Assembly: GCF_009914755.1 (NCBI RefSeq)
Contig: NC_060934.1
DNA length: 64,000 bases
Direction: 5' to 3' (one strand)
From: the human T2T-CHM13v2.0 reference genome, Homo sapiens
The position numbers and the translations under genes were made by a program. Each line of letters opens with the position of its first letter. Positions within the stretch are counted from its first letter, which is position 1. The notes below the pieces were generated by a model. It had not been told where the DNA came from and made no database searches. It saw only the letters and a program-made list of their open reading frames with translations. Shown here one piece after another: positions 59,201 through 64,000 of this stretch.

Positions 59201-60195
59201 TGCCTGAGGGCCCTGGCATGGGGTAATTGTCTATTGTTCATCGTCTGGTAAGCCAGCTCCCCACCTTCTTTCTGCCTGCCTGCCTTTCTGTCCTTCCTCT
59301 CAGCATCTGTCTATGCAATATAAAGAGCCCCTCCCAACACAGTCACCAGTGATCTGCTTCCAGGCTAGTGTTGACATCCCAGCCCACCCGGAGACCCATT
59401 TATTCTGCCACTGGGGCACAGGGCCCAGTTTTAATCATCCTCGCTCCACTGTGAGATACAGATGGTTGTATTATTAATAGTCATAATTAATCAGCATCCA
59501 CAGAGGAGCTTTTCCCTAGGCAGCAGATCCTCAGGACGAGCAGCCCTGGGAGGTCCCATTCCAGTCCCCCTTTACAGACAGGGGAAGTGAGGCTGGGAGA
59601 AGGGGTGGTGGGACTCATCCGAGGTGGAGCTAGGTATGGACCCCAGCTCAGATCTCAGATCTGATAACCACCTGCAGTGTTACTGTCTGGGAATGGACTG
59701 TTCACCCCACCCACCCATACCTAGGTCCTAGGGTGCCAATTGCTGGGAGAAGCTTTCAGCACTGGGGATGGGAGGGTGGTGCTCAGGCTGATGGTGCACT
59801 TTGAGATCTCAGGCTGAGAGTGAAGGAAGAAAGGTGGGATGGGGAAGAAAGGCCTGAGGGAGGCCGGACATATTGGGCTAGCAGGACAGGGGGCCTGATT
59901 GGGGTAAGGGTGGGGAGGTGGCCTTGGGTAGAAGGAAAGCCAAATACCAACCATCACCCCCTAATACACACAGATCGTGGGTCAGGGCCTGAGGTTGGCT
60001 GCTTCTCTGTTCTAAGCTCTGCATCCCAGGGACAGTGATATAAATGCTTACAGCAGGCAGCATCCTGATTTATGGGGCTGTTTTGGACGGGCCTAACTAC
60101 ATCAGCACAGAGGCAGTGAGGGGCTTCTTGCACAATTCTGCAAGCCCACCTTCTCCCCTGCCTGGCTCCTGGGGCTGACCACCACCGAGGCCCCT

Positions 60196-60221
60196 GTGCA
60201 TGCATGTGCACATGCATGCAC
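60196..60221. repeat. Perfect 26-bp palindrome
   Basis: GTGCATGCATGTGCACATGCATGCAC equals its own reverse complement. Confidence 0.95.
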
Positions 60222-61634
60222 CCAGACCCACGCCTGAGTGGGCACACCCAGGCCCACGTGCTCTGTGTGCACCTGAGGCTGTCCACATCCCTGCCCACAG
60301 CCCATAAACTGTGTTAGCCCAGCACGCAGGTGTGTGCTGCTTTGGGCCTGTGCGCAGATGAACACAGGTGTGCCCAGGTGCACACATGTGTGTGTCTGCC
60401 TGCACTCTGCAGGCATCCATGTGCCTATGTCCTCTGGGCTGCCTCTCTCTGTGTTGATCTGTTCGTGGCTCTGGGAGGTGGATGTCTGTTCGCTGTCCTG
60501 TGTGTGTCCCAGTGTGGATGTGCATTGGTGAGGGGTGTACATGCCTCTGTGCAAGTGCGCCTGTGTGCATGGGTCTGTGTGCACACATGTGTGGGCATGC
60601 AACTGCCGCCTCATCCTGTCTTTTTCATTATGGGTGTTGTCCACACTCACATCCTTGCGTGCAACACACACCCGGTGCCCAGCGTGGCTGGGCTGCCCCC
60701 GCCTGATCATTAGGCTCATGGATAAGACTCTCTGTCATCGTAAATGAGTATAGAGTGCCCCAGTCCAGGAGTCCTGAAGGAACTGGGGAGGTAGCCTCAT
60801 CTGTCCTCAGCATCTCCACCCCACCTCCATATGGATGGTGCTGGAGAGGGGAGGCTGGGAGGGAGGGATGTGGTGCCCACTCCCAGGCCCCCACACTGGG
60901 TTCCTGATCCACCCTTTGTTTCTCCCCACCATGCCTATGCACTCGCCCATATTCTGTGCCAGACCTTGAGGACAGCCCCGGGTCGTGGGAGAAGCCCAGT
61001 CAAGAGTCAGGCAGCCAGGTGCACAAACCCAGGCTCTGTTGCCAGCATGTGGCCCTAGACAGCCCCTCTGCCTCTCCCATCATCACTGTTTTCCCACCTG
61101 CAAAATGGTCTTAGCAATGGCCACCTCATGGGGTTATTGTGAGGACAAAAGGGGTGCAGAAACTGCTAGAGAAGTCAAGTTCCTTCCCCCAGCAGACCTC
61201 AGTCTCCCCATCTGTAAGATGGCAATAATGACCCTCACCAGTGGTCTCATGGAGTGTTTTGAAGGTCAGATGAGAAAAAGGTTCAGTGAAGGCTGCAGGG
61301 TGGTACCCATAGGACTTGTTCCAGCTGTGAGCAAAGGAGATGAGGGGTGCTAGGCACTTGGGGGTGGCATGCATGGCCTGGGCCAGATGCCTGCATCCAA
61401 ACCCCCATGCTGCCACCCTCTGGCCTTGGGATGTGGGAAGGTTACTTCATCCTCATCTGCATCTCTATTATCCTTAGATTCCTCATCTTTCCAGCAGGCA
61501 TGTTCGTAGTAGTATCCATCTCCTGGCATGTTGGGAGAATTCAGGAGAAATGAGTGTGGAGCTTAGCACAGAGCTTGACACAAAGCAGCTGCTCAAATCA
61601 GCGGTATTTGTTATTCTTGTTTTTGGCCTTATTG

Positions 61635-62293
61635 CGATACCGGTGGCCACTCGGTCTGGAAGGACAGGTGAATGCATGGCGGATGGTGCATTAATACCAC
61701 ACTAGGATACCTATTAATGAGGTTTAATCTGTGTTTCCAGACTTGATGTCCATCCGTCCCACCGAAGAAGAGTTCAAGCTTTTCTTCCAGGGAACTGAGA
61801 GGGCCATGCTGAAACTGGAAGCCTCAGCCTGCAAGAGGTGCCCTGGGGAAGGAGGTAGTTGGTACTGATGTTGGCCGACTACAAAGGAGCTGGCTCCTGG
61901 GACTCTGAATGCTGTGCCCTCTGCAGCCACCCAGCCCCACAATGGGAAGCCAGTGGTTACATTTACCCCTGTCTCTTCTGAACCATATGGTGGCTGCACC
62001 ACAGCTGGCTCAGAGGCTCTGAAAGAAGGCCCACAGGGGAACATGATGTCTTGCCTGAGCCAGGTGAGGACTGAGGCCCCCACTGCCAAGCACTGCAGTC
62101 TGGGGCTTCCATTTTCACCATAGTTCCTCTAAGCTGCCTGGAGGAAGGGCTTGAACTCATGAACTTCATGACCAATGGACCTGAAGTCTGGAAGCACAGA
62201 TGATACCTCATTAACAGGTATCCCAGTGTGATATCAATACATCATCTGTCATGCACTCACCTGTGCTTCCAGATGGGGTGGCCACTGGCACCG
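61635..62293. repeat. Long non-Alu inverted repeat (arms 61635-61833 and 62094-62293)
   Basis: Manual alignment: 61635-61753 vs revcomp 62175-62293, 98/119 identical, ungapped; 16-nt/16-nt symmetric mismatch block; 61770-61833 vs revcomp 62094-62158, 52/65 identical with one gap. Confidence 0.92.
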
Positions 62294-64000
62294 AGGGACT
62301 CCTTGCACAGTTATGCAGATGGCTGCCAATCTACTTGCTCCCCTTGCCCAGCTCCTGGGCTGACCACCACCGGGGCCCCTGTGCATAGAGCCCATGAGCA
62401 GTCCCCATCACCTGTGGGCTTCCCAGTCTGTGCCCAACTTAATGATAGCTGTTAGGGTCCAGTAGAGGATGCAATGTCCCCATCCTAGCAGGGGCTTTAC
62501 TGAAGAAACGAGGCCCTGGCACCCAGGCCAGGGCAGGGAGGAGACAGTTGGTAGACACAGCCGGGTCTGCAGGGGCTCGGAGGTCATGGGGCCCAGGTGG
62601 GCAGGCAAGGGAGGAGGCAGGCCAGGCTGGAGCCAGTCCTTGAAGGACAAAGAGGATTTAGCTCACTGGAAGGGATGGCATTCCAGAAGGACAGAAGTGT
62701 GTGGGCAAAAGTTTGGAATCATTCCCGGGGAAAGGTGTACCCTCTCCCATAAGAAGTTTGGCCTGCCCTGGACCAAAGAGCAGAGTCTTTGCTCTCGATG
62801 GCTAGTGGCTGTGGGGTGAAGCAGATGGCCAGGGGGTGTGGGTGACGGGGGAGGCGCACCCTCAGGCCTGAGCCAAGGGAAACCAAGTGGGCCCACACAG
62901 GCCAGAGCCTGAGACCTTGGCACCAGCTACTCGGAGATCTTGACTCAAGAGTTAATGATTCATTTGTGGCCAATTTTCTGCTGGCTTTGCCTGGAAATTC
63001 CCAAGCTTGCCCCTTCCCTCACCTTAGGGAGCTCCAAGAATACAGTCTCACTTACACTTGGCTGAGAACGTCTCACCCACTATCCAGGGAATGGTTTTTA
63101 AAATTACAGCAGGTGTGATGTAGGTTAGCCATTAGGAAAAGCTGATCGGGGGCTATAGGCTGGGAGCTGGGGTGGTTTGTTTGAGTGTTTGGAACAAATG
63201 TGAATAGAATTCAGTCTAGTGTAAAGTGTTGTGACAGTTACAAATTGGGAGCTACAGCTTGACCCAGAGTAGGACTTGGTTGGGCTAAAAAAGTAATGGC
63301 ATAGGCAAAGGCCCTGGGGCATGAACATCCAGGGAACGCTGAGTGATTGTGGTGTGGCTGGAGTGTAGAGGGTGTGAGAGACTTCTAGAAGTGTGGACAC
63401 AACTCCCAAGTGAAGGACTCTCAGGACTTGAAGATTTGGCAGTGGGACGTGCTGGCAGTGGGGAGTCAGGGCTGGTACCTGAGTAGGGGACAGGTGTGTT
63501 TGATTTGGGTTGTAGGGTCGCTTGCCCATCCCTGTCTTGATTCTGCTGGTCAGCAGACCTTCCTTGACAGCCTGCTCTGTGCCAGGTCGGACCCACGCTC
63601 TGCACGGGTCCTGCACCTGTGTGGAGGCTGAACTAAAGGGAGGGGGTTACATGTAGCAATTCAGGTGGGAGCATGGGTGTGTGCAGGAGCAGGGGAATGG
63701 CTGATGACTTCAGACCCACTCGGCTCCATCACCGAAAGTCCTTGGGTGAGCGTAGCAGAGGTGTTGGGGTAGGCTTCAGGAACCCCATGTTCCTGGCAGG
63801 CTCTGTGGACACGCCGCCTGGAAACCACTTCTGCCCTGTAATATCAGCATGGCTGAAGGGGCCTGGAATGTGTATCTGTCCTTGTACAGAGGAGGGGAGC
63901 AGACGAGGCCCAGAGAGGGGAAGGTTGATGGCAGAGCCCAGGCAGAACTCAGGGCCCAGTCTCCCAATCCTGGCTGATTGCACATATATCCCACCACCCA

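What the first reader, a model, noticed from the sequence alone, without database searches (positions are those of the whole stretch)
61635..62293. ~660-bp fold-back element: two ~200-bp inverted arms that match no repeat I recognise
Seen: the left arm (CGATACCGGTGGCCACTCGG...CCTGCA) pairs colinearly with the right arm (TGCAGTCTGGGG...GGCCACTGGCACCG). The outer block is 98/119 identical without gaps, followed by a 16x16-nt internal loop and an inner block of 52/65. A further TGCAGCCACC/GGTGGCTGCA match (61922-61931 / 61989-61998) lies near the centre. By my count 16 of the 21 outer-block mismatches are transitions, giving G-U or A-C pairs in the + strand pre-mRNA. I see no target-site duplication and no Alu/MIR/L2/MITE signature. 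Established: long intronic dsRNA is an ADAR substrate (A-C mismatches are favoured editing sites) and can feed Drosha/Dicer or MDA5. Inference: this is an old local inverted duplication or an unannotated long-TIR element that may form a functional hairpin in intron 1. Transition bias alone is also expected from neutral decay.
Basis: partly seen in the sequence, partly recalled or inferred. Interest (0 to 1): 0.8.

Follow-up and report, generated by a model that had tools for sequence, protein, structure and literature searches.

The report
Inverted duplicate of an old MITE
The fold-back in ZMIZ1 intron 1 is real, but it is an old reversed local copy of a short stretch carrying a small multicopy transposon relic, it looks neutrally decayed, and its one visible effect is to supply splice sites for an alternative exon.

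Summary
The fold-back is real. The arms are 61635-61835 and 62094-62293, about 80% complementary. RNA MFE is -374.5 kcal/mol, z -19.6.

It is not an unknown repeat. Each outer block is itself a complete 117-nt palindrome (61640-61756 and 62172-62288). These belong to a dispersed family of TA-flanked, CAG-ended elements of Tc1/mariner type. The family's end motif gives 84 genome hits against 7 for the control, and copies on eight other chromosomes align.

The inner block (52 of 65) is unique to this locus. The 258-nt centre has no inverted homology. The two copies share 21 changes from the family majority, against 3 and 8 private ones. One already-old copy plus about 77 nt of flank was therefore duplicated in reverse, and both parts have since diverged equally (K2P 0.21).

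Mismatches give 7 G-U against 7-9 A-C, so I see no sign of selection for pairing. No Rfam family matches.

The element's terminal repeat supplies the acceptor of annotated exon 61741-62063. This is ordinary and of low novelty. The family's Dfam name, conservation in other species and RNA editing could not be checked here.

The parts
61635..61835 (+). Left arm of the fold-back: duplicated unit of MITE copy plus adjacent unique sequence
   Evidence: colinear inverted match to 62094-62293, about 80% identical
61638..61639 (.). TA dinucleotide directly before the left MITE copy (candidate target-site duplication; the matching site after the copy reads TC at 61757-61758)
   Evidence: sequence. Family copies carry TA next to CAG/CTG-type termini
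61640..61756 (+). Left MITE copy (ZL): a 117-nt palindromic element with both terminal inverted repeats
   Evidence: The stretch 61640-61757 folds alone at -42.2 kcal/mol. It aligns to copies on chr14, chr4, chr9 and others. Its right TIR is one of the 84 hits of the family motif, with 2 mismatches
61759..61835 (+). Left inner block: unique flank copied together with the MITE (homology 61770-61834)
   Evidence: 52 of 65, score 38 against a null maximum of 16, and not found beside other family copies; the only 2 genome hits are the two arms
61836..62093 (.). 258-nt unique spacer (loop) holding the 62063 splice donor and a chance-level 10-nt inverted match
   Evidence: no inverted homology (score 11; 19% of shuffles reach it); no other copy at word-level sensitivity
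62094..62169 (-). Right inner block: reversed copy of the unique flank
62172..62288 (-). Right MITE copy (ZR), inverted relative to ZL
   Evidence: ZL against ZR scores 78 inverted and 14 direct; the stretch 62171-62288 folds alone at -46.5 kcal/mol; aligns to the family
61741..62063 (+). Annotated alternative ZMIZ1 exon. Its acceptor (TGTTTCCAG|A, AG at 61739-61740) lies in the right TIR of ZL and its donor (CCAG|gtgagg) lies in the spacer
   Evidence: The exon comes from the annotation supplied with the finding. Splice-site contexts were read
62217..62218 (+). Alternative donor (AACAG|gtatcc) inside the loop of ZR, used by annotated exon 59908-62217
   Evidence: annotation supplied with the finding

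Best explanation
A small non-autonomous DNA transposon of the Tc1/mariner type inserted into what is now ZMIZ1 intron 1. It is a roughly 117-nt palindromic MITE with TA flanks and CAG...CTG ends. Much later, after that copy had already drifted far from its family, about 200 bp was copied in reverse orientation 258 bp away. The copied piece held the MITE, about 77 nt on its inner side and perhaps 5 nt on its outer side. The likely route was a template switch or fold-back repair event, possibly helped by the palindrome. This origin step is inferred.

Since then both arms have decayed at the same, apparently neutral, rate. In transcripts that run through the region the two arms are predicted to pair into a long imperfect duplex, but nothing found here indicates that the pairing is maintained by selection.

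The one visible consequence is exonisation. Read towards its outer end, the element's terminal repeat is TGTTTCCAG|AC, a ready-made 3' splice site, and it is the annotated acceptor of alternative exon 61741-62063. The loop of the right copy supplies the alternative donor at 62217.
For: The fold-back is real.

Each outer block is a palindrome of its own.
- I4.
- Local hairpins of -42.2 and -46.5 kcal/mol.

It belongs to a dispersed family.
- A gapped palindrome pattern gave 15 matches against 0 controls, including chr14 and chr4 copies.
- The chr14 copy aligns to the arms at scores 37-41 against a null maximum of 18.
- The chr9, chr5, chr4 and chr10 copies score 32-37 against the chr14 copy, with a null maximum of 23.
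- The end motif gave 84 genome hits against 7 controls.
- A second, more internal motif gave 5 against 0.

TA flanks in the alignment:
- TA follows the right terminus in 6 of the 9 other copies with a readable right end.
- TA precedes a CAG-type left terminus in 4 of 11.
- L093, L097 and L099 have TA on both sides.

A duplication rather than two separate insertions:
- ZL and ZR share 21 derived states over 92 well-defined columns, against 3 and 8 private ones.
- The inner block of 52 of 65 lies outside the MITE.
- It is absent beside 17 other family loci (maximum score 14, null maximum 17).
- It is unique in the genome (2 hits, both the arms themselves, 0 controls).
- K2P is 0.21 for both the outer and inner blocks.

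Neutral decay:
- 7 G-U against 7 A-C in the 119-nt block, or 7 against 9 in the 124-nt block.
- No Rfam family matches in 60500-63500 apart from an unrelated weak hit.

Splice sites were read against the supplied annotation.
Against: - The family could not be named because no Dfam or RepeatMasker library was on hand. The claim that it is a known kind of repeat therefore rests on its structure, not on a look-up.
- The whole-genome DNA search is insensitive. It did not even report the right arm when queried with the left arm, so diverged copies of the inner block or spacer could have been missed. The pattern search would catch only roughly one in five copies that are 20% diverged (my estimate).
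- The flanks of these two copies are imperfect: TA...TC for ZL and TG...TC for ZR.
- The 21 shared derived states could partly reflect a distinct subfamily rather than age before the duplication.
- The G-U against A-C test has few sites and cannot exclude weak selection.
- No conservation, editing or expression data could be examined.
- The exons come from the supplied RefSeq table, and I could not check their read support.
Confidence: 0.7

Rival explanations
1. The fold-back is a working RNA structure. In ZMIZ1 pre-mRNA, or in the alternative-promoter transcripts that keep it, the duplex of about 150 bp recruits ADAR or other dsRNA-binding proteins. Alternatively it hides the 61741 acceptor and the 62217 donor and so steers splice-site choice or translation of the leader.
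For: - The duplex is very stable. The long-range fold is -357.5 kcal/mol against -251.6 when only local pairs are allowed, with 147 long-range pairs in helices of up to 22 bp.
- The tail of exon 59908-62217 keeps 102 long-range pairs (MFE -261.5, z -11.8). The tail ending at 62063 keeps 31 (z -3.1).
- Both MITE-derived splice sites lie inside the paired arms.
Against: - There is no excess of pairing-preserving G-U over A-C mismatches (7 against 7-9).
- The arms have diverged as much as an unconstrained sequence of that age would, and equally in the MITE and non-MITE parts (K2P 0.21).
- No Rfam match.
- Full-text searches found no paper linking ZMIZ1 to this hairpin or to editing at it (4 papers, unrelated by listing; 1 paper, whose ZMIZ1 passage concerns an eQTL).
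- Predicted stability alone is what any 80%-identical inverted pair gives.
Confidence: 0.15
2. The whole 660 bp is a single composite transposable element with about 200-bp terminal inverted repeats, mobilised through the outermost MITE ends.
For: - The outermost ends are genuine transposon termini in inverted orientation: CCGGTGGCC... at the left and ...GGCCACTGG at the right.
- The flanks read TA on the left and CA on the right, one transition away from a TA/TA duplication.
Against: - No second copy of the inner block (2 hits, both this locus).
- No second copy of the spacer or of the whole element.
- Arm homology may run about 5 nt beyond the MITE end (CGATA against CGGTG), which transposition would not copy.
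- The searches have limited sensitivity.
Confidence: 0.08
3. Two independent insertions of the same MITE about 530 bp apart in opposite orientation, with no duplication event.
For: - The family is multicopy.
- Another motif hit lies about 72 kb upstream of the window on the same chromosome.
Against: - The 65-column inner block outside the MITE is 80% identical between the arms and unique in the genome.
- ZL and ZR share 21 derived states and are far closer to each other (score 78) than to any other copy (29-39).
Confidence: 0.03

Closest known systems
Palindromic Tc1/mariner-type MITEs of the human genome, such as MADE1 (name and properties recalled, not looked up here)
   Same: - Short (about 120 nt) and non-coding.
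- Nearly its whole length is two terminal inverted repeats around a small loop.
- TA flanks and CAG-type termini.
- Dispersed on many chromosomes.
- Longer forms of about 330 bp also exist.
   Different: - The sequence is unrelated to MADE1 as far as I recall it.
- No microRNA family in Rfam matches this locus or 13 other family loci at the gathering score.
Intronic inverted repeat pairs (typically inverted Alu pairs) that form dsRNA, are edited by ADAR and can promote exon skipping or back-splicing (established knowledge, recalled)
   Same: Two inverted copies of a transposon-bearing segment a few hundred bases apart in an intron of an expressed gene, predicted to form a long imperfect duplex that brackets an exon's donor and overlaps its acceptor.
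   Different: - The pair arose by local duplication of one copy plus its flank, not by two insertions.
- The arms are non-Alu.
- No editing or circular-RNA evidence was seen. The reported circZMIZ1 comes from exons 2-4, elsewhere in the gene (passages of PMC13687641).
Exonisation of transposable elements (latent splice sites in Alu, MIR and DNA-transposon sequences; established knowledge, recalled)
   Same: The annotated acceptor of exon 61741-62063 is the pyrimidine-rich TGTTTCCAG|A of the element's terminal repeat, and the 62217 donor lies in the other copy (and the supplied annotation).
   Different: Because the element is a palindrome, the same latent acceptor is present on both strands of every copy. 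Whether other copies are exonised was not tested.
Inverted duplications with a spacer produced by fold-back priming or replication template switching (established mechanism, recalled)
   Same: Two inverted arms of equal divergence separated by a unique spacer, with no further copies elsewhere.
   Different: The event itself is inferred. The 10-nt inverted match in the spacer is no better than chance and is not at the arm borders, so no priming microhomology can be pointed to.

Membership tests
Tc1/mariner-type MITE (outer block of each arm) | Terminal inverted repeats covering most of a short non-coding element | tested here: met
   ZL and ZR each fold as a single hairpin (-42.2 and -46.5 kcal/mol), see also I4. 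The TIRs align to the family's.
Tc1/mariner-type MITE (outer block of each arm) | Many dispersed copies in the genome | tested here: met
   The end motif gave 84 hits against 7 controls. A second motif gave 5 against 0. Copies from 17 other loci were fetched and 11 of them were aligned with the two arms.
Tc1/mariner-type MITE (outer block of each arm) | TA target-site duplication beside the termini | tested here: inconclusive
   For the family, TA follows the right terminus in 6 of 9 readable copies and lies on both sides in L093, L097 and L099. At this locus the flanks read TA...TC (ZL) and TG...TC (ZR), so they are decayed.
Tc1/mariner-type MITE (outer block of each arm) | Match to a named Dfam/Repbase consensus or to a transposase-bearing parent element | not testable with these tools
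   No repeat library is on hand. The long forms seen are only about 330 bp with no coding part. A full-text search for four strings of the end motif found 0 papers.
Single long-TIR transposon (whole 660 bp) | Other genomic copies carrying the same inner block and spacer | tested here: not met
   The inner-block pattern gave 2 hits, both this locus, and 0 controls. The spacer and the whole element found only themselves. Sensitivity is limited (one search missed the other arm).
microRNA or other curated RNA family | Score at or above an Rfam gathering threshold | tested here: not met
   One search gave no match within 61635-62293. One search gave 5 weak matches in 13 family loci, all far below the gathering score.
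Selected dsRNA or ADAR-substrate hairpin | Long intramolecular duplex | tested here: met
   Prediction only: MFE -374.5, z -19.6, and 147 long-range pairs.
Selected dsRNA or ADAR-substrate hairpin | Evidence that pairing is conserved (bias towards pairing-preserving changes, covariation between species) | tested here: not met
   G-U 7 against A-C 7-9. Covariation across species could not be tested because no other vertebrate genome is held.
Selected dsRNA or ADAR-substrate hairpin | Observed A-to-I editing, dsRNA-binding protein CLIP signal or small RNAs | not testable with these tools
Paper searches gave nothing for this site.

The most novel reading that the evidence does not exclude
The fold-back acts as a structural switch in ZMIZ1 transcripts that start at the alternative first exon (59908). 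Use of the 62217 donor keeps a duplex of about 100 bp in the mature leader, whereas use of the 62063 donor removes its partner arm (102 against 31 long-range pairs). Splice-site choice would then decide whether the leader carries a dsRNA that blocks scanning or draws ADAR or PKR. In the long pre-mRNA the same pairing would mask the MITE-derived acceptor at 61741.
Probability: 0.08. Interest if true: 0.5.

Novelty: new member of a known kind. Interest (0 to 1): 0.22.

Why it matters
It matters mostly as a correction. What looked like an orphan 660-bp hairpin is a reversed local duplicate of an ancient transposon relic plus its flank, a common and usually neutral kind of structure.

Three small points are worth keeping.
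- A palindromic MITE carries a latent 3' splice site on both strands, and here it is the annotated acceptor of a ZMIZ1 alternative exon.
- An inverted pair can arise by duplicating one copy rather than by two insertions. That changes how such pairs should be dated.
- ZMIZ1 is a dosage-sensitive gene, so a strong duplex in an alternative leader is cheap to test. There is no present evidence that it does anything.

Tried and rejected
- Whole-genome word-based DNA searches with the whole element, the left arm and the spacer found only the query itself. I rejected these as evidence of uniqueness because one search did not even report the right arm.
- The loop motif GGATACCTNTTAATGAGGT gave 71 hits against 149 controls, so it is not enriched. 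BLAST of the element against those 28 loci and against the rest of the window gave nothing convincing. The best was 71% over 80 nt in L004, seeded by the motif itself.
- A sequence-only covariance model of the two arms was built, but this genome cannot be searched with a model. It was not used.
- The central 10-nt inverted match as a priming site was rejected as chance level. Inverted homology beyond the arms, in the 150-nt outer flanks, is also at chance level.
- I tried to name the family from the literature by its end motif and found 0 papers.
- I looked for a transposase-bearing parent. The longest copies seen are about 330 bp.
- A link to circZMIZ1 was rejected. A review states that it comes from exons 2-4 (passages only), which lie outside this window.
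- About half of the pattern hits (47 against 5 controls) came from tandem arrays on chr2, chr7 and chr16, not from family copies, so that count was not used as evidence for the family.

Full report
**1. The observation**

- The repeat finder reports inverted arms 61635-61758 / 62170-62293 (124 nt, 81% complementary, 411 nt apart) and 61770-61802 / 62126-62158 (33 nt, 82%).
- A gapped local alignment of the left half against the reverse complement of the right half runs colinearly from 61640 to 61834.
Its 21 mismatches are 14 transitions and 7 transversions.
- The inner block has 52 matches in 65 columns and scores 38, against a maximum of 16 in 1000 shuffles.
- As RNA, 61600-62330 folds at -374.5 kcal/mol. 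Shuffles give -258.8 ± 5.9, z -19.6, and 0 of 20 fold as well.
- The central TGCAGCCACC/GGTGGCTGCA match is at chance level. The best inverted alignment inside 61836-62093 scores 11, which 19% of shuffles reach. There is also no inverted homology outside the arms.

**2. What the arms are made of**

The repeat finder also showed a 17-nt inverted pair inside the right arm (I4, 94%) and a direct match between the arms (D2). Each outer block is therefore a palindrome in its own right: TCTGGAAG.ACAGGTGA ... TC.CCTGTG.TTCCAGA. Folded alone, 61640-61757 gives -42.2 kcal/mol and 62171-62288 gives -46.5 kcal/mol, each as a single hairpin.

Word-based whole-genome DNA searches found only the query itself. 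That says little, because the left arm as query did not even retrieve the right arm. I turned to degenerate patterns built from positions that the two arms share.
- The pattern from the inner end of the palindrome gave 15 hits against 3 controls, and several hits shared a base the pattern had not asked for.
- A gapped 'stem ... stem' pattern gave 15 matches against 0 controls, among them loci on chr14 and chr4.
- The chr14 copy aligns to both arms over about 105-120 nt, with scores 37 and 41 against a null maximum of 18.
- Copies on chr9, chr5, chr4 and chr10 align to the chr14 copy with scores 32-37, against a null mean of 14.3 and maximum of 23.
- A 22-nt majority motif for the element's end (ATGGCCATAAAGTCTGGAAACA, up to 3 mismatches) gave 84 genome hits against 7 for the reversed control. 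One of those hits is the right terminal repeat of the left copy at this locus.
- A second motif further inside the repeat gave 5 against 0, and two of these lie within about 100 nt of hits.

**3. The family**

I fetched eleven further copies and aligned nine of them, together with the chr14, chr4 and chr9 copies and the two arms.
- The ends read TA|CAG(A/G)GTGGCCATAAAGTCTGGAAACA(T/C)AGGTGAATA... on one side and the reverse complement, ...CTG|TA, on the other.
- In the alignment, TA follows the right terminus in 6 of the 9 other copies whose right end can be read.
- TA precedes a CAG-type left terminus in 4 of 11.
- L093, L097 and L099 have TA on both sides.

Taken together, TA flanks, CAG termini, a length of about 120 nt, no coding capacity and many dispersed copies describe a Tc1/mariner-superfamily MITE. 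The superfamily assignment rests on established knowledge of TA duplication and not on a library match.

Longer forms of about 330 bp also exist. L045 has a second terminal repeat about 310 nt from the first, and L090, L091 and L045 share about 190-240 nt. No transposase-bearing copy was seen.

From 77 excess hits and the identities, I estimate some hundreds of copies. This is rough and biased by how the copies were chosen. I could not obtain the family's Dfam or Repbase name: there is no repeat library here, the window file carries no soft-masking, and a full-text search for the end motif found 0 papers. I name no family from memory.

**4. How the fold-back arose**

The two copies here are ZL (61640-61756) and ZR (62172-62288).
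- They match each other only in inverted orientation (score 78 against 14 direct) and far better than either matches any other copy (29-39).
- I compared them with the majority of the 11 other copies over 92 well-defined columns. They agree with it at 57, share the same departure at 21, and differ privately at 3 (ZL) and 8 (ZR). At 2 columns all three differ, and 1 column has a gap.
- Of the 21 shared changes, 14 go from A/T to G/C. This fits a long stay in this GC-rich region.
- The arms also share the 65-column inner block, which lies outside the MITE. That block is not found beside any of 17 other family loci (best 14, null maximum 17).
- A 33-place pattern for the inner block hits only the two arms in the whole genome (2 hits, 0 controls).
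- Outer and inner blocks have the same divergence (K2P 0.21-0.22 and 0.21).
- The 258-nt centre is unique.

The simplest history has three steps. One MITE inserted. It aged in place. A segment of about 200 bp, made of the MITE plus about 77 nt of inner flank, was then copied in reverse 258 bp away.

The mechanism (template switch or fold-back repair, perhaps prompted by the palindrome) is inferred. No priming microhomology can be shown. Using recalled neutral rates of about 1-2.2e-9 per site per year, K2P 0.21 puts the duplication very roughly 50-100 million years ago. This needs a multi-species alignment, which I could not make.

**5. Does the hairpin do anything?**

Thermodynamically the long-range fold wins. 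It gives -357.5 kcal/mol for 61635-62293, against -251.6 when pairs are limited to 150 nt. There are 147 long-range pairs in helices of up to 22 bp. The two local hairpins would form first during transcription.

I found no sign that pairing is protected.
- Transition mismatches give 7 G-U and 7 A-C pairs on the + strand RNA in the 119-nt block, or 7 and 9 in the 124-nt block. Neutral decay predicts an even split.
- Only 2 of the transitions sit at CpG sites.
- No Rfam family matches the element or 13 other family loci at the gathering score.
- Papers: 'ZMIZ1' with 'inverted repeat' gave 4 papers, none relevant by title or abstract.
- 'ZMIZ1' with 'A-to-I' and 'editing' gave 1 paper, whose only ZMIZ1 passage concerns an eQTL.
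- A review states that circZMIZ1 comes from exons 2-4, elsewhere in the gene (passages only).
- Editing catalogues, CLIP data, small-RNA reads and conservation across species were out of reach. The functional reading is therefore unproven, not excluded.

**6. What can be seen: exonisation**

The annotation supplied with the finding lists the alternative ZMIZ1 exons 61741-62063, 59908-62063 and 59908-62217.
- The acceptor of the first (ggtttaatctgtgtttccag|ACTT) is the right terminal repeat of ZL. This pyrimidine-rich CAG is a family feature and, because the element is a palindrome, it is present on both strands of every copy.
- The 62217 donor (AACAG|gtatcc) lies in the loop of ZR. The 62063 donor lies in the spacer.
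- A leader ending at 62217 keeps 102 long-range pairs (MFE -261.5, z -11.8). One ending at 62063 keeps 31 (z -3.1).

This is the basis of the boldest reading I cannot exclude, that donor choice toggles a duplex in the leader. I give it about 8%.

**7. Verdict**

'No known repeat or MITE signature' and 'long-TIR element' are not supported. 'Functional hairpin' is not shown.

This is a new instance of known kinds of thing: an ancient MITE, a local inverted duplication and transposon exonisation. Interest is low. My confidence in the main reading is about 0.7. The main gaps are the missing repeat-library look-up, the limited sensitivity of the copy search, and the lack of comparative and RNA data.

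Noticed in passing
L055-L062 (own genome, contig 2, 16040906-16041369): A tandem array with a period of about 31 nt. Its unit matches 61657-61686 of the left arm at 28 of 30. It may be chance, or a minisatellite grown from another copy's terminal repeat.
   Followed up: no
own genome, contig 16, 94070921-94072466: TCTGGAAGGACAGGTGAGTCCAGC recurs four times within 1.5 kb. This is a local repeat that inflated the hit count of that pattern.
   Followed up: no
window 60537-60601: A weak mir-297-like Rfam match: 26.4 bits against a gathering score of 90, E 0.11. Most likely low-complexity sequence, not a microRNA.
   Followed up: no
window 62259-62274 and every family copy: The terminal repeat reads (C/T)TGTG(C/T)TTCCAG|A on whichever strand is transcribed, so each copy of this MITE family carries a latent 3' splice site in both orientations. 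The one at 62273/62274 in the right copy is not in the supplied exon list.
   Followed up: partly
own genome, contig 10, 79845566-79845587 (about 72 kb before the window start): Another 3-mismatch hit of the family's end motif in the same gene neighbourhood. It was not fetched.
   Followed up: no
L037, L041, L042, L043, L047: Five hits of the pattern share ATTCCACACT.TA.GTCCAT. They evidently belong to a different, unrelated interspersed repeat that resembles the arm by chance.
   Followed up: no
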